DNA of 64,000 nucleotides from the human T2T-CHM13v2.0 reference genome, Homo sapiens. Under the pieces are notes generated by a model that made no database searches, was not told where the DNA came from, and saw nothing but the letters and a program-made list of their open reading frames with translations. The DNA is taken from assembly GCF_009914755.1 (NCBI RefSeq), contig NC_060937.1, one strand, 5' to 3'. Positions 1 through 10,959 of this stretch are shown piece after piece; within the stretch, counting starts at the first letter, position 1, and the number at the start of each line of letters is the position of its first letter. A program made the translations under genes and the position numbers.

Positions 1-3000
1 TATATTTCTTCTGTGTAAGAAAGTTAGAATATAGAAAAAAGTTTTTGCAAGCAGTAGAACAAAATATTTGTTAAAATAAAACATGAAACATTATTAAAAC
101 AAAAGGCTATATTAAGTGCAAAAGAGGGTAAATACACATTTTTAAAAGAATAGCAGACAAGTTTAAAGAGATATAACTTGAAGTAGTGTGGACATAAGCA
201 TATATCAAGATGCATTCAAATCTGTATCAATATAACTTTGCTTTTATTATATTTAATGTTATAATTTCAATGTATCTTCATATCAGGGAAGTGTTAATCC
301 TATTCTAATTTTTCAGAAAAATAATTTCTTCTTGACTGAGGGCTGATGATGCTTTTTATTTTAAATATAATAGTTAATAATAAACAGAAAATCAGAAAAC
401 CAAAATGAATGTTCTTCAGGAGAATTAATGATAAATTACACTCAATAGATTTAAACACTACTCACTTTATAAATTTTATTTTTTAAAATTATACTTCAAT
501 TCTGAGGTCTCTTAAGGAACATTGTGCTTTAACTGAATGTATGTATCCTACAACGGTTGTTTTACCAAACAAGAACATCTTGAATGTGTTTATGTTGTAG
601 ACACATTAATGGATTTTTCATATTAAAAATACCAAGACATTTCCAGATTAGAACGTTGTCTAATTCAAGGCAACCTAACATCAATATTGAATTATTACTA
701 AAATTTGTGTGTTCCATAAGTATTGTTTAATCAATGAATTTTTTTATTGTTAAGAACAATATTAGATTGAGATATATTTAAGATAGAGGATAATTTCTCT
801 TAAATCTTCTCAGTTAAGAGCACCAGGAAAATTAATAGACATATTATATTTACAAGCAAACTTTTCAAACTTTCTTCTACCCTTTCTTTGCTATTATCCT
901 TGCCTCTGAGTGTTAATTCATCATTCTTTTTTTGTCAGCTGTCTGCACTGTTATTTGAGGATTTCCAAAATGCCAGAAGGTGCACTAACAGCTGTAGATA
1001 CTTGAGTCAACAAGGTAACATCAGTTGATTTTGTTCTAGACAATACACAGATACATAATTGCACAGAGTACATGTTGTGGAGGCACTTGGCACATTTCAA
1101 AATATAACTTTTTGTTATTGCACTAAGTGCCTGAAGCGGCACAGAATTTTCACAATAATATTTCTGCCCCCAATTATTTTTTAAATTCTGAAAGTTTGGG
1201 GATCAGGTATTCTTCAAGAGTCACAATAAAAAATGTAATTCTCATAATACTTGGATAAGTTACTAAGCAATCTAACCTCTGCATTGCTCTACTTCTTAAA
1301 TGCACTTCAGTGAATGAAACTGAATGTCCCTATTCAGGAAACATGCTCATGGCATCGGTGGCGTTATACCACATATATGCATGTTGTTAATTTAAAGTTT
1401 AGATAAAAAAGCAATCTCTAATTTATTTATGGTATAAAAAGAAGAGAGATAGAACTAGTCACAGATATTGTACCTAAAGAACTTCAATGTCTAAAGGGAA
1501 ATTTAACTCTGATCCTTTAAGAGTAATCCTGTAAGTTATTAAATTAAACTATATCTATATAGTGTTAGTTATAAATTTAGAAACCTAAGTTTCCCAACTC
1601 ATATTATTTGAGGGTATAGTCACTCCAGTCTCTCAGAGAATATGCAGAACATACATCTCTGGTAGATCCATCATCACCTGAACTGATTGGATTAGAGTGT
1701 ACTGAAAGTTTAAGAGGCTACCTTTAAAGTACTAGCAAATGGAGTGATCAGTTAGTGAGTTCAATTTTCCAGATTCCAGGTAGGATGCAAAAACACCTTG
1801 GTCTGTGGCAGGCTGTGCCCCTAGTGAATACAATAGGAAAGCAAACTGAAAGCATCCTGAAGAATACAGAAAGCTAGAACCAGGTCAGAAAATCAAAAGT
1901 AAGAACACGGAACAGTCGTTCCAGTGACTACATAGAAATCAGTCAGGAGAAATAACTAAAGAGTCAGGATTCAGGCTTACATTTCATGTGATGCTGGAGA
2001 TGAAAAAAAAAAAAAAAAGACAGCACTTAAATTTCTTCCACTTTAAAAATTATGTTTGTTTGGTATTTCCTCCTTTACCAATTCTGGCTTACATTTTTAT
2101 TTTTAGAGGTTAGTTCACCTTACCCTTTAAGAAGTTATGATCTATAATATCACAGTCAAGAACACTTTCTGTAAACTCCAACAAAAATGGATTACTAGAG
2201 GAGTCTAACTTGTTTTAAAATCATGTCATAATGTATTATCAACCTTGTAAAGTCTTGCACATATGTATACATATTTGAGAGGAACCTGCATTTGTATAAT
2301 TTCATAGATGTATAGCATCACAAACGTATTAAAAATATTATATATATGCCAATATAATTGTATAAACATGTATTTTTATTTGATGGCAAAAGTTGGTTCA
2401 TAAGCTGGGAGAAATAATTTTCTCCATGATGTTCATTAGTTTATATGTTCATGGGATAATATTCTAATTCATTTTCTAAGTGTATTGTATTTAAGCTTAT
2501 GTCTAAGAATTTTTTTGAATCTAATTTAAGAAGTTTTCATAATTCACTATTTGAAAACATATCACTCATTTTTTTCTTCCTTGCAGAAACTTCTGTACTT
2601 TTTCTCTCAAGGTCATACAGCCCTGAATCTGATAGCAACAGAGCTTCAGCAATAACAGCAGATGCCATCTTAGATTAATGTGAGTGAATGCTTTTTCACA
2701 ATTTTTATAGTTTCTCTTCTTTGCACCCATTTCGTCAGGGAACAATGTTGGGTTCAATGCTGGGTGCCCTAGAGGTGCCCTAGAGTTATTTTAACGAATT
2801 CAATTTGCTTTGCTTTTCATGTAAGCACGGTTTTTCTTCTTAGATATTTTTTGGAGGTAATACGAGAAACTATTTCTTACATAAAATATTTTTAAAAGTT
2901 TACTCTTTATATAAGCCTTCATTATAGAATCATAGAATTAAAAGACCAGAGACTATAGAGATCATCTATTTTACTTTTTCTCAAGGATAATAGACAGAGG

Positions 3001-3360
3001 TTTTTGCCTTACCACCACTCATTTCTATTTTTTCTTTTCTTGAATGCAGTGATTCTCACCTGCTTTGCCCACTTTTCCTATTTCTTCTTTAAGTCAGTAG
3101 TGGAGAATTTAACTAGTTTACTTTTTTGTAGTATATTTTGAATTATGAAACACTAAAGTGGTTTTAAGTCCTCATTTCACATAAAGAAACTACATTGCAG
3201 AGCAGCTTAGCTATTTAACGAAAGAGCACACAAACACCTAGTAGCAGAAGAAGGTCCTGAATGGCTCAGAAATGCAGGGCTATTTCCCCCTGTGAATTCT
3301 AACCTAGGAAGTCTACACATGAAGCCGGAGCTTTGACTCCTTTCCTACTGCACATAACTG

Positions 3361-3652
3361 TTTGGAGACGGAGTCTTAGCCTGTCGCCCAGGCTGGAGTG
3401 CAGTGGTGTGATCTCAGCTCACTGCAACCTCTGCCACCTGGGTTCAAGTGATTCCCCTGCCTCAGCCTCTGCCTCCTGAGTAGCTGGGATTACAGGTGCC
3501 TGCCACCACGCTTGGCTAATTTTTTTGTATTTTTAGTAGATATGGGATTTCACCATCTTAGCCAGGTTGGTCTTGAACTCCTCACCTTGTGATCCACCCA
3601 TTTCGGCCTCCCAAAGTTCTGGGGTTACAGGCGTGAGCCACCGTGCCCGGCC
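3361..3652 (-). mobile_element. Alu (AluSc/Sg-like), poly(A) tail essentially absent
   Basis: GAGACGGAGTCT...GGCTGGAGTGCAGTGG...GTGAGCCACCGTGCCCGGCC is the reverse complement of a full Alu dimer; CCTTGTGATCC variant. Confidence 0.95.
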
Positions 3653-4085
3653 AGAGCATTTTTCATATGCTTATTGGCCATGTGTATGTCTTATTGTGAA
3701 AAAATGTTTATGTCCTTTGTCCACTTTTTAAATAGGGATACTTTTTGTTCCTGTTGTTTGTAGATTCTGGATATTAGTTCTTTGTAAGATGCATTGTGTG
3801 CAGATACTTTCTCCCATTCTCTAGGTTTTCTGTTCACTGTGTTGATTATTTCTTCTGCTGTGCAGAAGCTTTTAAGTTTGATAAAGTCCTATTGGTCTAT
3901 TTTTGTTATTGTCGCATTTGCTTTTGAGGTCTGTCTTAGTCTTGAATTTTTGCCTAGACCAATATCTAGAAGAACTTTTTCTAGGTTTTCTTCTAGTATT
4001 TTTATAGTTTTAGGTCTCACATTTACGTCTTTAATCCATCTTCAGATTTTTGTATATGGTGAGAGATAGGAATCTAGTTTCAGCT
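3653..4085 (-). mobile_element. L1 ORF2 3' fragment (L1PB/L1MA-like)
   Basis: Antisense ORF2 signature in ORF 3794..4069 (FSHSLG.LFT.LI.S.AVQKLLSLI); GATTCTGGATATTAG motif. Confidence 0.85.
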
Positions 4086-4105
4086 GCCTATTTAAAGAAC
4101 TATGA

Positions 4106-4574
4106 TGTAGCTGAGATTTTTCAGTGTACTTGAAAGCTAGCAAGTTAGCCTGACACCATTACATGGATGTTGATAGAAGAGCCAAGACTCTTGGGTCAGA
4201 TACAAAGGTCCTTATTCAGAAATTACAATAGCCTCAGCCACAGTCATACAGAGTAATGTCAAGAGGGCCAGGTGAGACATGCACATGTAATGTGATGCAT
4301 TATAGGAGAGGGACCTGAAACTTAGAGAAACCCACTTTTACAATAGGCAGTAAATATGCCTTCTTTGTTCTGGAGGAAGTCACTAATACTACATGTCAAG
4401 CTCAGAAAAGTTTGCTCTTTGCTATGGAGAGAAATACTGTATCTTTCAAGGCAGTTAAACGTTCTTGAAAACATATTTAATAAGGATTTTTTTAAAAATG
4501 GCAATGAGCAATCAGTGTCACAGCTCTCAAAATGTACAGAAACATAAGAGACCCAGGGATCATTGTCTCCCACC
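4106..4574 (-). mobile_element. Old ERVL-class solo LTR (LTR40-like)
   Basis: Minus strand begins GGGAGACAATGATCCCTGGGTCTC, resembling recalled LTR40 5' end; ends ...CTACA; family from memory. Confidence 0.45.
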
Positions 4575-4935
4575 CACCCCTTTCTACACAATGACAATGT
4601 CTTAATTGTAAGAGCAAAAAAAATAGCATGACAGTTTAAATTGGAACATGCCATTTTTATTTTGTCAGTATAAACTGTCTATTGTTACAGGATCAACCAG
4701 TATGTATTATTGTTTTAAGGAATATATTCATGGATGCACTTAGAACATTTTTTTCTGCCACTTTTGTTTGTTCATTTGTTTTCATCTTGTGTTCTATTGC
4801 TCCAGTTTAAGTCAAACTTGTAATATAAGGTTTCTTAACTTCCTCATAGACTGAGAAAGAGATTCTGAGTTTTACTAAGAATTACCTTGACTCACAGCTT
4901 AGCTATTACAGAGTAGATAGGAACATGTGGCAATT

Positions 4936-5331
4936 TGTTGGGGTGATCAGACCCAACACCAGGTTGTGGGGTTGACAAAGTTCGGTGCAGTCAAAGGATT
5001 GAGAAAAAGACAGTTTGAGAGAGAAATGTGGAACACCAGAGGGCCATCACTATCGTGGAGGCTGCGAAGGCCCCGAGTTCTGGGAGCCCACGGTATTTAT
5101 TGGTAATCCAACAAAGAAACGGTGAGAATGTGGAGGTCAAAAGGGCACATTGCATTAAGCACATGATTTACAGCTGTGATTGTTTAGCATTTATACTGAA
5201 CATGTTCTGCTACTTGAGATAATGGGAATAGGAGCCTAGGAGCAAGGAGCCAGCAAGTCTAGACACATTCCAGAGGACATTATGCAATCCCTGCCTCAGT
5301 TTCCCTCCCAACACTCAGCTTTTTCCCAACA
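4936..5331 (-). repeat. 3' LTR (LTR14A/B-like), 396 bp
   Basis: Minus strand TGTTGGGAAAAAGCTGAG...CACCCCAACA; AATAAA on minus strand near 5100; aligns to 9659-10066. Confidence 0.92.
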
Positions 5332-5350
5332 TGCCCCCCCTTCTCTTTTT
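5332..5350 (-). promoter_or_regulatory. Polypurine tract of the provirus
   Basis: AAAAAAGAGAAGGGGGGGCA-type purine run directly abutting the 3' LTR on the minus strand. Confidence 0.85.
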
Positions 5351-6109
5351 TGTAAAAGAAGGTATCATTATTACTAGCTATCATTATTACTAGCATAAAA
5401 GGTAGCCTTTTAATTGAGCAAGGCGATTGCAGGCTGTGCAGCCCTTAATTGCAGGCTGGTGATCCAGCTTCATTTTTCTTAGCCCTTATTCAAACTGGAG
5501 TCACTCTGGTTTGAATGCTTCCCACATATCTCCCCTTTCCCTTTTACAAGAGGACCCTTAATCCTAGGGGTTTGCAGAAGGATGAAGGTCCGTCTTCTGT
5601 AACTCCTTCCTGCTGAATAGGGGCGATGATATTCCTGCCTATTAGGGTCTCTTGTATTCAGGGTAGAGAGGTGCTGAGTCAGAAAGCATTGGTCCATTAA
5701 GCATTGTGACTCCAGTTGGTCCTTGTTCCATCTTCGTATTCACATTCAACTGGCTCATGGCTCCTACTGGGGGAACCCAGTCCATGGTTGTGATCCATGG
5801 GTCCCTCCAGTTTCCTGTTACATGGTTGTACACATCTTGAGGACATCCGCACGGTTCATTCATCTCATGTAAAAAACACAAGCATACTCTCACCCCCATG
5901 TTAGTAAATCTACTGAAACAGAAGCAAAAACTTCTGTGGCTGTAGCTGGGAGGCATGCCATTGCTGAAGCATTTGTTAACTCCATTTCTGCCTCTTTCGT
6001 TAATTACCATGAGGTAAAACTTTCCAATGATAATGAGAAACAGGCCTTTTTTGATTAACAGAAGGCATAGAGAAAGCAAATTGAGGCTTTTCAAACCTGC
6101 AATTCTCAC

Positions 6110-6238
6110 TGTACATGTGGGTCCACTAGATGCTGTGGCTTATGATAGATCTTCAGATGTTTGGTGGGCACCCACATAGGCATCTGATTGTCACCTGGAC
6201 AGACACAAGCAAATCCTCTTCCCCATAAAATTATCTTT
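6110..6238 (-). pseudogene. HML-1-type integrase C-terminus remnant
   Basis: Minus strand translates to [32 protein letters not shown], the betaretroviral WGRG(F/Y)ACV integrase motif. Confidence 0.8.
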
Positions 6239-8935
6239 AGGTGGGGATCAGAGGAAGTAGACTCAGAGGTAAGGAGAATTTTGGGGACTAATGGTTTCCT
6301 GATGTTTCATAGGTGTTCCCTTGGAAGTTAGGAATTCCCTTTCTCTCCATATTGCTGCGTGGGCATGGAGGACTAGGTAAGCATACTTAGAGTCTGTATA
6401 TATATTTACCCCTTTTCCTTCTCTTAATTCTGGTGTATAAGACCCCTGCTTTTCCTAGGATGTCTCTCGCTACCAAAGGAGTGGGGCTTTCAGGAATAAT
6501 TAGAAAGGCATGTGAAAAGAGTAAAGTTCCCCAGTCACAGCTTAGTGGCTGGGAGAAGTATCTAGTGACTGCCTGTCCTAGGACCCCCTCTAATAGTGAC
6601 AGATCTGGAGGACAGTTGTCCGGGACTGGAGAGTAAGACCGAGAAGGCAGTGCCAGTGTCCAGGAGACAGAACCTCCTGGCTCTCAGTGGTCAAGCATAC
6701 CTGGGGAGGCTGATGGCATGGGCTGGCACTTGGCCCAGGCACCCTCAGTCCTGCTGCTGGATCATTTGGTTAGTGGCTTCTGACTCAGAGGACCTTCGTC
6801 CCCTGGGGCAATGGGCCTTCCAGTGATTCCCTTGACATAAAGGGCATGGACGAGGGGGCAGCTTATTTCTATTCAGAATCTTTTTTAAAGTGTCCTTGTA
6901 GACTGCACTGGAAGCAAGCCCTACTAGGCATTCGATTTTCCTAGCCTTTCCCTTTTCCAGAGCCTCAAAGTCTGCTTGTCTGAGGGTCATGACTAAAGAG
7001 GTGGCTTTTTTTTTTTAAATCCCATTTGTCCTGTTCTGCCTGCTCCTTATCTCTATTATATATTAAAAAAAAAAAAAAAGTTTGCCAAGTTCAATAGGGT
7101 CTCTAAGTTTTGCTCCGGGCCTAACGCAGACTTTTGAAGTTTTTTCTAATGTCTGCAGCTGACTGAGTGATAAATTTATCATTTAAGATTAGTTGGCCTT
7201 CGTTAGAGTTAGGTGACAGAGGTATGCTTCCTCAACTCCTCCCTTTGTCTCTCCAGAAAGGCGGTAGGATTTTCTTCCTTTCCCTGTGTTATAGTGGTTT
7301 CTTCCTAGTTTTCCTTAGTCCTTCTAACACTCAAGTTAGCAAACGTCTGCGGCACCAATCTCCATATTCTGATTCTGCGTCCCACTACACTGGGAACTGC
7401 CTGCTGGCCTGTGGGGAGTTGTTCTCTTTCCTCTGTTGTCATCTTATCATTGACCTGACTGAGATACCAGAGATTGCCAAAATCTCAGGCTGCAGTTATG
7501 GCGGCACTTGAGGTTAACTCTCTCATTTGAGGTTAGTGTCTGATGTAGCAGTAACATTATATCTATGTCAAATCAAAGGATTGTCCTAACCCTTGTAAAA
7601 CATCAACTAGAGCCATCAGGGTTATCTGAGAATTTACCTAGGTCTATTTTGTTTCAGGTCTGAGAGGGAGAAAGGTTCATACACTCTGACTGGGCCGAAT
7701 TCTCCAGAATACATATTAGGGGAGTTTTTGCCTTGGGGGGAACGTTTCCCATCTGAAAAAAAGAACACAGGGATGCCAGCACCCCTAGTCATTTTCCGAA
7801 GCCGATGAGCATTAGTCCTAGAGCGTCCTCTATGATCCTAATGCTTATTCTCTTCCAGGGTGCGTAACCACCCATAGACCTCTGCTTATCGGATTAGTTA
7901 TGCTCACCGATGTAGCAGTCCTGCATCTGTTTTCCTGCCTTTCTTGACCGCAAAGAAAGGGGCCTGGGCTGCTGGATTCTAGTGGTCCTTTACCAGCATG
8001 CCCACCATTGCCTTTGTGCTCAGAGGTGAGTTCTAGAGCTGGGCTGGGTTCCTGAATATTTCATAACAACCCAGCTGCCCCATCAAGATGTATTCCCATA
8101 AACAACAGTTCTTATGCAAGTTCATTTTAGAGAGGGTGTAGGTAACCTTTTGAGTCAGGATTGAGAGAGTTTGATTCTGTGAGTATTTTAAGGCTTGGCT
8201 GAGTGCAAACAGCTCGAACGTTTAAGCAGATTATTAGGCAATTTTCCTAACTCTGCTTCTACAAGACTTTCCCTATCAATTACTGAACACCCATTGTTTG
8301 TTTCTCTTTTCTCAATCACCCGGGAGGAACCGTCTATCATCCTGTCCTGAAGGGAGTTCCTCCTAGGTCTGGTCGGACTTTTGTGTGGTAATTAAGGTTT
8401 AAATCCCGTTAGGAAACCTGCTAGGTTAAGGGAATTTTCAGTGGTTAATGTTAAATCACCTTTTTCTAACAGAATAGCCCCATACTTTAAGATTGGGTTA
8501 GTAAGCTACCTTTTTGTTTTTTTTGTTTTGTTTTGTTTTTTAACTTAGGATAGCTCTGAACTGGTGAGGTGTGCTCAGAATGAGGTTTCCTCTAAAGTTT
8601 ATTTTTTCTACTTTCTTCTGCTGGCAAAGCAGTTGCTGCTACAGATTGAATGCATTTGGGCTATCCATGGGTTACCAGGTTAAGGATTTTTGATAGGAAG
8701 GCTACTGGTTGTCAGTGGTCTCAGTGCTTTCAGGCTACTCCCTTGTTTACGCTGACAACAAGGTAGTATTGAAGTATTGTAGGGTCATGGAGAAGACCTT
8801 CAATTATCAATTATAGGTTTTAAATTTACCCTGGCTTTTAAAGGAATAGGGTACACTTTTTTCTTTACTTGTGTATCTCTTTCTCCTTTTGTAGATGGAT
8901 TTTGGAAACACAGTGGAATGACGTTTGCTGTCTTC
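6239..8935 (-). pseudogene. HERV-W (HERV17)-type leader, deleted gag, protease and RNase H fragment
   Basis: gag start MGNVPPKAKTPL (ATG at 7752-7750); NC PPRPCPLCQGNHWKAHCPRGRRSSESEATNQMIQQQD* (ORF 6745..6990); protease YFSQPLSCDWGTLLFSHAFLI; RNaseH VNIYTDSKYAYLVLHAHAAIW. Confidence 0.88.
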
Positions 8936-9535
8936 CCTGCTGGATTATAGTTACGGGAAATTGCCATGCTTCAAGGTATCCCTTGGCTCTAGCCTTTTGA
9001 ATAGAATTTTTTATAACACCACCAATTGCTCCAGGTTTTAACGTTGCAACTACAGTAGAAGTTTTGTAGCTAATTCATCTTCTTGCCCATTAAGGGGAGA
9101 GAGGAGGTAGCCTTTTTCGGCAGTTGGAGCTGACGGGCTAGTAAAACACGCTTTTTTCAGTTTTCCTTTTCTTTAATTTCCTGTTCCTCACATTCAGAAT
9201 CTGAGGTTAGTTTTTTATACTCGTCCTCCTCTTCCTCATCTGAATCTGCCTCATCATCTGTTTGAAAAGGCTCAAGAGCTGCTTTTATTAGCACCTGCAT
9301 TGACCAAACAGACTGGAATTTTTGCTCCATGTTTATGAGCTTTTTTTTTTTAATTTCTGCCAATTCTCTCCCATTCATCTAACTCCATAGTTCCTTGTTC
9401 CAGGAACCATGGACAAAACTGCTTTACTGCACCGAAGAGTGATAAATTCTGAGTACTAAATTTCACTCCCTCTCTTCATGATAAATGCCTTAAGAACTTT
9501 AAATAAGCAGAATGTCTGCTTTCACTTTGTCCTAT
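8936..9535 (-). pseudogene. HML-1 gag 5' part (matrix and acidic spacer), frameshifted
   Basis: GQSESRHSAYL...FCPWFLEQGTMELDEWERIG and IKAALEPFQTDDEADSDEEEEDEYKKLTSDSECEEQ (ORF 9157..9378). Confidence 0.85.
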
Positions 9536-9636
9536 TTTCACCCTGGTTCTCCTGAGCACTCAGGTTTCCCACCAAGCTTCTTATAGACATCTTCCGTGTT
9601 CACGTGCTCTGGCGTTCCTTCATTGGGGTCTTTGTT

Positions 9637-9654
9637 GCCCCACGTTGGATGCCA
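9637..9654 (-). promoter_or_regulatory. Primer-binding site, tRNA-Lys(CUU) type
   Basis: Minus strand TGGCATCCAACGTGGGGC versus TGGCGCCCAACGTGGGGC (16/18), 4 nt after the 5' LTR. Confidence 0.88.
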
Positions 9655-9658
9655 GGAA

Positions 9659-10066
9659 TATTGGCGTGATCAGACCCAACACTAGGTCATAGGGGTGACA
9701 AAGTCCGGCGGAGTCAAAGGATTGAGAAAAAGACAGTTTGAGAGAGAAATGTGGGACAGCAGAGGGCCATCGCTTTTGTGGAGACTGCGAAGGCCCTGGG
9801 CTCTGGGAGCCCACAGTATTTATTGGTAATCCAATAAAGAAACAGATGGTGAGAATGTGGAGGTCAAAAGGGCACGTTGCGTTAAGCACATGATTTACAG
9901 CTGTGATGGCTTAGTATTTATATGGAACATGTTCTGCTACTTGAGATAATGGGAATAGAAGTCTAGGAGCCTAGAAGCAAGGAGCCAGCAAGCCTAGACA
10001 CATTCCAGAGGACATTATGCAAGCTCTGCCTCAGTTTCCCTCCCAACACTCAGCTTTTTCCCAACA
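9659..10066 (-). repeat. 5' LTR (LTR14A/B-like), 408 bp
   Basis: Hand alignment with 4936-5331: about 32 substitutions plus 4-bp and 8-bp indels. Confidence 0.92.
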
Positions 10067-10959
10067 GCAATTGCACTAAGAGTTAGCACTAGAATGAGAC
10101 AAATATAGGAAGAAGGAAATGTGCAAGCAAACCAGGAAAAAAAACAGTGTAAGTGAAATATCACAAATTGTATACTTCCTATCAGTTTTTACTATAATAA
10201 CTTAAAGACTGTCGTCGTATTTTTATCTGTGTAGTTTTGTAAACATACCTATTCTATAATATTAGATACAGAATAATCAGGTACAATCTATCTTGCCTAT
10301 TTTGTTTTATATATTAACTTGTTCATTTTTAATTTTTATATCTTCTTTATAGATATAAGTATTAAGAGAGAAGGGAATACATTATTTTGTCTAATTACTG
10401 TAGAAGTGTGCCTGGTAGAAGAAGAAATTGTGAATGTTAGTCGAATATGCAAATAAATAAGGAAAATATTATGACTTTTGTGCTTCAGAGATTATGGTAT
10501 TGTGTCAAGGTATAACGTTTCCAAGAACCTATATTTAAACAGCAAACAATAAACATAGTAACAATATAAACATATAAACAATATAAACATAGTATATTTT
10601 ACTATATTTAAAATATAGTAAACTATATTTAAATAGCATCCTTTAAATGTTTTTCTAACATAATAAACATAAAAAAAAAGTTTCAAGATTACACAAGGTA
10701 GACATATAAATGAAATTCAAATATAACAATCCTTAATAAAATGGCAAAAAATTATGCTATTATTATGACACTTGTATACTTTCAGACATAAGAAAACATA
10801 CTTGACTTAATTTTCTTTTAAGTGCATACTTATGAAATAAAGCTAAATATGTTAAGCTAGAAATATCATTAAAGTAAATCATTATAATACATTTTATTAG
10901 CCTCTTTTAAAGACACTGTATGTTTCAAAGGACTTAGTGATATTTGGTGTTGCTTAGCA

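What the first reader, a model, noticed from the sequence alone, without database searches (positions are those of the whole stretch)
4930..10072. Inter-class recombinant provirus: HERV-K14 shell carrying a HERV-W core, integrated by a betaretroviral-type integrase
Seen: LTRs, Lys PBS, gag matrix and integrase tail are class II (HML-1), while about 2.7 kb (6239-8935) is class I HERV-W leader-gag-pro-RNaseH in the same orientation, with no HERV-W LTRs, poly(A) or TSD of its own. The outer TSD is a perfect 6-mer GCAATT. Known: 6-bp TSDs typify HERV-K-like integrases and 4-bp TSDs typify HERV-W. Inference: co-packaging and RT template switching between unrelated retrovirus classes made a non-autonomous vector mobilised in trans. 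I recall HERV-K14/HERV-W hybrids being reported (Flockerzi et al. 2005, from memory), so the class is probably not new, though this copy and its junctions may be little studied. LTR-LTR divergence is about 8% (32/396 by hand), implying tens of millions of years.
Basis: partly seen in the sequence, partly recalled or inferred. Interest (0 to 1): 0.72.

Follow-up and report, generated by a model that had tools for sequence, protein, structure and literature searches.

The report
Known hybrid of two fossil retroviruses
This is one of at least 15 dead copies in the human genome of an already described hybrid fossil retrovirus, with the ends of HERV-K14 around a broken middle of the unrelated HERV-W; it likely arose when the copying enzyme jumped between the two viral RNAs and was then likely spread by HERV-K14 proteins.

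Summary
Confirmed, and already known as a class. On the minus strand lie two HML-1 (LTR14B) LTRs differing at 32 of 396 sites, a Lys PBS, a 6-bp target duplication and a 2.7-kb HERV-W core. A review reports seven such hybrids (Flockerzi 2005, not readable here), and this very copy is catalogued as an LTR14B-HERVK14-HERV17 mosaic (Vargiu 2016, Table S1). What this check adds: 15 loci share the 3' join, which has three parts: HERV-W RNase H, a 47-nt out-of-order patch of HERV-W leader, HML-1 integrase tail. The HERV-W core carries the same RT and gag deletions as plain HERV-W loci, so the hybrid likely never replicated alone. Its HML-1 parts carry several haplotypes that plain HML-1 loci also carry, pointing to later exchange with helper-type sequences. 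Best mechanism: reverse-transcriptase template switching, then spread in trans (0.7); nested insertion followed by deletions is not excluded.

The parts
4930..4935 (.). target-site duplication, left copy (6 bp)
4936..5331 (-). 3' LTR of HML-1 (LTR14B in Vargiu Table S1), 396 nt
5332..5351 (-). polypurine tract
   Evidence: sequence
5352..6238 (-). HML-1 integrase C-terminal tail and short remnant before the LTR; env largely absent, as in plain HML-1 loci such as L051 and L053 that match this stretch without a break
5955..6024 (-). 70-nt segment present in 3 of 15 hybrids (window, L068, L062) and absent in 12; plain HML-1 loci come in both forms
6239..6286 (-). about 47-nt patch of HERV-W 5' leader, out of order; in plain HERV-W it lies about 430 nt after the PBS and about 300 nt upstream of the original 5' crossover
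6287..6430 (-). HERV-W RNase H fragment, cut off at the patch
6431..6744 (-). HERV-W protease region, joined straight to RNase H (reverse transcriptase missing; same join in plain HERV-W loci L049, L058, L059)
6745..7752 (-). HERV-W gag, broken by stops and frameshifts, with the internal deletion near 7691-7705 that plain HERV-W loci share
7753..8927 (-). HERV-W leader (pre-gag), 3' part only
8927..8929 (-). secondary deletion join (about 240 nt lost, 2-nt microhomology) that removed the original HML-1/HERV-W crossover; shared by 8 loci
8928..9636 (-). HML-1 leader and 5' part of gag (broken); likely holds the packaging signal
   Evidence: packaging role inferred
9637..9654 (-). primer-binding site, typed Lys (K) in Vargiu Table S1
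9659..10066 (-). 5' LTR of HML-1, 408 nt
10067..10072 (.). target-site duplication, right copy (6 bp)

Best explanation
This is a dead, non-coding copy of the HML-1/HERV-W hybrid provirus family, whose single founder likely formed when reverse transcriptase jumped from an HML-1 RNA onto a co-packaged defective HERV-W RNA and back, and which was likely then packaged, copied and integrated by HML-1 proteins made elsewhere. In minus-strand order the enzyme would have copied the HML-1 3' end, jumped to the HERV-W leader for about 47 nt, jumped to HERV-W RNase H, copied through pro, gag and the 3' leader, and returned to HML-1 gag at a 4-nt microhomology. A descendant then lost 240 nt across the 5' crossover and gave 8 of the copies, this one included. 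Shown: structure, shared joins, independent flanks, 5-6 bp duplications, pre-existing deletions in the HERV-W part. Inferred: RNA-level origin, two separate RNAs, the helper, the order of jumps.
For: One founder: the same three-part 3' join in 15 of 15 hybrids; the RNase H-to-patch and patch-to-integrase joins occur only in those 15 among 40 scored candidates (of 194 and 161). Separate integrations: 450-nt flanks share only dispersed, Alu-like repeats; duplications of 6 bp in 5 and 5 bp in 4 of 13 loci with both ends, 4 unclear, none clearly 4 bp; plain HML-1 controls show 6 of 6 and 5 of 6 at two loci. All cis signals (LTRs, PBS, leader, PPT) are HML-1, none HERV-W. No RT, integrase core or env from either parent; the RT-loss and gag-loss joins are the same in 3 of 4 plain HERV-W loci examined and such deletions are recurrent in print (PMC5016936). 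Out-of-order inserts at deletion joins are a known RT error class (PMC3187697), and HERV-K captured the FAM8A1 mRNA by the same route (PMC5131818). Continued contact with plain HML-1: three haplotypes at the 70-nt site and a 9-nt indel occur in both hybrids and plain loci; hybrids are rejected as one clade in the 5' gag part (p-AU 0.022).
Against: Microhomology is thin: 4 nt at the original 5' crossover (chance about 0.016 for one join), about 3 nt with a one-base offset at RNase H/patch, none at patch/integrase. The review files deletions with insertions under intramolecular switches, which fits a single nested RNA as well. The 3' HML-1 part does not reject one hybrid clade (p-AU 0.36), so only 1 of 2 such tests rejects. 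The HERV-W core tree is unresolved (1 starred branch of 12; only 3 plain loci). Gene conversion between copies does occur (L071/L072) and could mimic exchange with a helper. No single-crossover intermediate was seen.
Confidence: 0.7

Rival explanations
1. A defective HERV-W provirus or L1-made retrocopy first inserted, in sense, into an HML-1 provirus; reverse transcription of the read-through RNA then deleted both borders, one as a deletion with insertion. No co-packaging of two classes is needed; spread in trans by HML-1 is the same.
For: The patch donor site and RNase H would lie on one RNA; deletions with insertions are listed as intramolecular events; HERV-W retrocopies are common; this family kept suffering internal deletions (240-nt loss in 8 copies, larger ones in L066, L068, L070).
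Against: No LTR17, HERV-W PBS, poly(A) or inner duplication in the window; no nested precursor among the 40 scored candidates of each junction search (lower bounds); the HERV-W poly(A) signal should cut the read-through RNA (inference); two large deletions are needed.
Confidence: 0.2
2. The founder arose at DNA level: a break in an HML-1 provirus was repaired by microhomology-mediated template switching onto a HERV-W locus, with the patch as a templated insertion; later copies spread through RNA.
For: Short or no microhomology and a templated patch also fit replicative repair (established knowledge, recalled); the review names DNA-level recombination as possible; conversion between neighbouring copies is visible.
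Against: The product keeps exactly the cis signals needed for packaging and integration and has the make-up of LTR-mediated captures; the patch comes from about 3 kb away in the donor; both parents are viral RNAs likely co-expressed in the germ line (inference).
Confidence: 0.08
3. The HERV-W part is a private insertion or rearrangement at this one locus, or the interior is plain HERVK14.
For: None.
Against: Joins shared by 14 (3') and 7 (5') other loci; interior matches plain HERV-W loci at 84-88% over 2.5 kb and is HERV17 in Vargiu Table S1.
Confidence: 0.01

Closest known systems
HERV-K14(HML-1)/HERV-W hybrid proviruses (Flockerzi et al. 2005, seen only through the review PMC3778440, section 5)
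   Same: HML-1 provirus with gag, pro and pol replaced by HERV-W; different flanks; spread through a transcript.
   Different: Review says seven proviruses; 15 loci found here in T2T (a lower bound). The review does not mention the leader patch, the two 5' forms or exchange with plain HML-1; the original paper, which I could not read, may.
RetroTector chain rvnr 3985 (Vargiu et al. 2016, PMC4724089, Table S1 row)
   Same: hg19 chr13:65,283,607-65,276,793, minus strand, same 18-nt PBS, RepeatMasker image LTR14B-HERVK14-HERV17-HERVK14-LTR14: this copy. Rows for the chr7 and second chr13 hybrids are there too.
   Different: Filed as non-canonical HERVW; 3' LTR not recognised, no junction analysis. 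Identity with the window rests on chromosome, strand, PBS and order of parts, not on a lift-over.
LTR-mediated capture of foreign RNA: HERV-K/FAM8A1 and Drosophila/mouse retrocopies (PMC5131818, passages)
   Same: Internal ORFs replaced by foreign RNA between intact LTRs, microhomology at joins, secondary rounds of transposition.
   Different: The cargo here is another retrovirus's RNA, of a different class; joins have less microhomology than the 6-bp median reported.
Harlequin and other mosaic HERVs (PMC4724089, passages)
   Same: Defective recombinants that multiplied after the recombination.
   Different: Those mostly join related viruses within class I or class II; this one crosses classes.

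Membership tests
HML-1/HERV-W hybrid provirus | HML-1 LTRs at both ends | tested here: met
   LTRs group with plain HML-1 LTRs; LTR14B in Table S1
HML-1/HERV-W hybrid provirus | gag, pro, pol replaced by HERV-W sequence in sense | tested here: met
HML-1/HERV-W hybrid provirus | several copies with different flanks | tested here: met
   15 loci, unrelated flanks
HML-1/HERV-W hybrid provirus | is one of the seven loci of Flockerzi 2005 | not testable with these tools
   paper not held
HERV-W provirus or processed pseudogene | LTR17 (whole, or R-U5 and U3-R), poly(A), L1-type duplication | tested here: not met
   no HERV-W U5 or PBS match in the window; ends are HML-1 LTRs
Replication-competent or autonomous ERV | open gag, pro, pol with RT and integrase | tested here: not met
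   longest stop-free stretch on the sense strand 165 codons; RT absent
Product of a betaretroviral-type integrase | 5-6 bp target duplication, TG...CA ends | tested here: met
   6 of 6 here; 9 of 13 hybrids fit 5 or 6 bp with at most one mismatch, 4 unclear. The 4-bp rule for class I is recalled; a search for it found no paper and I measured no HERV-W duplication
LTR-mediated capture by RT template switch | microhomology at both switch points | tested here: inconclusive
   4 nt, about 3 nt offset, and 0 nt at the three founding joins
LTR-mediated capture by RT template switch | donor RNA separate from the vector RNA | not testable with these tools
   no precursor seen, but searches score only 40 candidates each

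The most novel reading that the evidence does not exclude
The family records, base by base, a three-jump crossing between a class II and a class I retroviral RNA in one particle (the 47-nt leader patch is the scar), followed by a second master copy and repeated recombination with helper HML-1 genomes; the family is twice as large as reported, and this junction history is not in print.
Probability: 0.4. Interest if true: 0.45.

Novelty: already known. Interest (0 to 1): 0.27.

Why it matters
Recombination across retroviral classes is rare among catalogued HERV mosaics, and this family is a clean natural record of it: it shows that a betaretroviral shell could take up and spread gammaretroviral RNA in the primate germ line. 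In practice these loci are filed as HERV-W by internal sequence but sit behind HML-1 LTRs, which can mislead HERV-W expression studies. The class and this copy are already in print, the element codes for nothing, and no function is suggested, so the gain is in detail.

Tried and rejected
Flockerzi 2005 could not be read by DOI or PMC id; whether it describes the patch is open. Ten literature searches turned up one text describing the hybrids (PMC3778440) and one table listing this copy; most subscription papers are not searched. The supplements of PMC5016936 held as text (2 files, 2,545 characters) did not contain its locus table, so I do not know whether these loci are among its 'undefined' HERV-W. 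In Vargiu Table S1 I saw places 1-11 of 585 for HML1 and one further search. Full-length plain HERV-W and HML-1 references were not obtained; RT-loss was judged from 4 loci and leader positions from 5. Trees: HERV-W core unresolved; LTR tree puts the 8 short-join and 4 five-prime-less copies in one clade at 91/94, unstarred, with one plain row (K_C2_5) wrongly cut by my anchor. Rows left out: L066, L068, L071 and L060 from the core tree; L073, K_L015, K_L048 from the 3' tree; L068, L070, L071, L072 from the 5' tree (region missing or cut short). PDB search with the nucleocapsid piece gave only weak hits. Mean LTR divergence does not separate long-join (0.095, n=3) from short-join copies (0.086, n=8). 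Segmental duplication as the source of the copies rejected.

Full report
The element runs on the minus strand from 10066 to 4936, 5,131 nt, between two copies of GCAATT. Its LTRs are 408 and 396 nt and differ at 32 of 396 aligned columns. An 18-nt PBS lies at 9637-9654 and a purine tract at 5332-5351. Of 11 translated pieces, Pfam matched four: an integrase DNA-binding domain above cut-off, RNase H and protease below cut-off, and a chance-level zinc knuckle. The longest stop-free stretch on the sense strand is 165 codons, so nothing is coded.

The two parents. A search of the own genome with the whole element gave 83 matches from 36 scored of 2,166 candidates. One set of loci matches only element positions about 1138-3779; five of these, read at their 5' end, show an LTR end, a PBS and a long leader with an AG-rich stretch. 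Another set matches only 1-1139 and 3829-5131. Names come from print: Vargiu et al. 2016 (PMC4724089; I saw passages and a few rows of Table S1) list a minus-strand chain at hg19 chr13:65,283,607 with the same PBS and the RepeatMasker image LTR14B, HERVK14, HERV17, HERVK14, LTR14. HERVK14 is HML-1 and HERV17 is HERV-W. I take this row to be this copy from chromosome, strand, PBS and order of parts; I ran no lift-over.

The class is known. The review PMC3778440 (section 5 read whole) says that seven HML-1 proviruses have gag, pro and pol replaced by HERV-W, by template switching or at DNA level, and that differing flanks show spread through a transcript; it cites Flockerzi et al. 2005, which is not held.

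The 3' join has three parts. After the HERV-W RNase H piece come about 47 nt (6239-6286) that match plain HERV-W not in pol but in the leader, about 430 nt after the PBS, at up to 42 of 43 identity, E 3e-15; then the HML-1 integrase tail starts at 6238. All 15 hybrids, the window included, have this join (one, L070, lacks the first few bases of the patch); 4 of 4 plain HERV-W loci read on into RNase H, 5 of 5 read on into leader on both sides of the patch, and 11 of 11 plain HML-1 loci have integrase sequence there. Searches across each half of the join found it in the same 15 loci and in none of the other 25 scored candidates (40 of 194; 40 of 161). Microhomology is about 3 nt with a one-base offset at the first half and none at the second.

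Three copies (L062, L065, L067) hold about 240 nt more at this place: some 30 nt of HML-1 gag and some 210 nt of HERV-W leader, joined at a 4-nt microhomology (L062 has a small local rearrangement beside it). The window and seven others (L061, L063, L064, L066, L069, L073, L074) share one deletion across it with a 2-nt microhomology, at 8927/8928 (8 of 40 scored of 96; 2 full matches plus L062 among 40 of 100). Four copies have lost the region. In plain HERV-W the patch lies about 300 nt upstream of the original crossover (3 of 5 loci; 2 lack that stretch), so it was never elsewhere in the hybrid and had to come from the donor when the founder formed. LTRs of the short-join and five-prime-less copies form one clade at 91/94, unstarred, while long-join LTRs sit unresolved among plain HML-1: in line with long first, short derived, but not proof.

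The hybrid was likely never autonomous. Protease is joined straight to RNase H, and the same join is in 3 of 4 plain HERV-W loci examined; the gag deletion is shared too. Grandi et al. 2016 (PMC5016936, passages) report recurrent gag and pol deletions in 45% and 28% of HERV-W sequences, which fit in place and size. The short HML-1 3' end is matched without a break by plain loci. All signals for priming, strand transfer and integration are HML-1; the HERV-W U5, PBS and early leader have no match in the window except the patch.

The copies are separate integrations. Flanks share only dispersed repeats. Of 13 loci with both ends, 5 fit a 6-bp and 4 a 5-bp duplication with at most one mismatch, and 4 are unclear (L066, L067, L070, L074; L074 also fits 4 of 4 because its LTR start is decayed). 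Two plain HML-1 loci show 6 of 6 and 5 of 6. That class I integrases give 4 bp is recalled (one search found no paper). LTR divergence (K2P) is 0.087 here and 0.050-0.143 across 13 loci, median 0.091. With Grandi's method (CpG left out, 0.13% per million years, halved) this copy's 0.067 gives about 26 million years; the faster rates in the review give 9-19.

Signs of later exchange with plain HML-1. At a 70-nt site in the 3' part, hybrids carry three states: absent (12 of 15), type x (window, L068) and type y (L062). Each state also occurs in plain loci: three linked columns split window, L068, K_L047 and K_L055 from L062, K_L053, K_L051 and K_L015, and a 9-nt indel nearby is in L061, L062 and three plain loci. 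One founder can have held only one state. A one-clade test rejects the hybrids as a clade in the 5' gag part (p-AU 0.022, 11 against 12 rows) but not in the 3' part (0.36, 14 against 10). Recombination with co-packaged helper RNA explains this; so could gene conversion after integration, which is visible between L071 and L072 (95.6% over 1,256 nt inside, 88% in the LTR).

Mechanism. Most likely reverse transcriptase made three non-homologous jumps: HML-1 3' end to HERV-W leader, leader to RNase H, and leader back to HML-1 gag; the product was then carried by HML-1 proteins in trans (0.7). Template switches give non-homologous recombination and deletions with insertions (PMC3187697, passages), and HERV-K has captured a cellular mRNA in this way (PMC5131818, passages). 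The main rival (0.2) is a HERV-W insertion nested in an HML-1 provirus, trimmed later in one read-through RNA; it explains the patch as well, and only the lack of a precursor, of LTR17 or poly(A) remnants speaks against it. DNA repair by template switching is third (0.08).

Verdict. A real inter-class hybrid, known since 2005 as a family and listed as a locus in 2016. The count of 15, the leader patch, the erased crossover and the mixed HML-1 haplotypes were in none of the texts I could read, but the founding paper was not among them. Interest 0.27.

Noticed in passing
L071 and L072 (G000:C6:167.69-167.73 Mb): Two hybrid copies 30 kb apart, in opposite orientation, both without a 5' part in the stretch held; 95.6% alike over 1,256 internal nt but 88% in the LTR, with different flanks: likely gene conversion.
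   Followed up: partly
L063 and L074 (G000:C9:29.67 and 29.79 Mb): Two separate integrations 120 kb apart that pair in both the core tree (99/100) and the 3' tree (96/87): local hopping from one source or old conversion.
   Followed up: partly
L068 (G000:C6:127,099,639-127,101,492): A 1.85-kb minimal hybrid: the 5' LTR is cut at about nt 357 and joined to the HERV-W pro/RNase H border; no PBS; 5-bp duplication.
   Followed up: partly
G000:C13, C14, C15, C21, C22 short arms: Many near-identical HML-1 copies on the acrocentric short arms, likely spread by segmental duplication.
   Followed up: no
L061 flanks; L065 gag; L067 core: L061 sits inside an Alu-like repeat; L065 and L067 carry later insertions of about 0.3 and 1.1 kb.
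   Followed up: no
window 10526-10775: AT-rich low-complexity repeats and a 42-nt imperfect inverted repeat just outside the 5' LTR.
   Followed up: no
L014/L048, L015, L016, L022, L028: Plain HML-1 loci with large internal deletions of different sizes between gag and the integrase tail.
   Followed up: no
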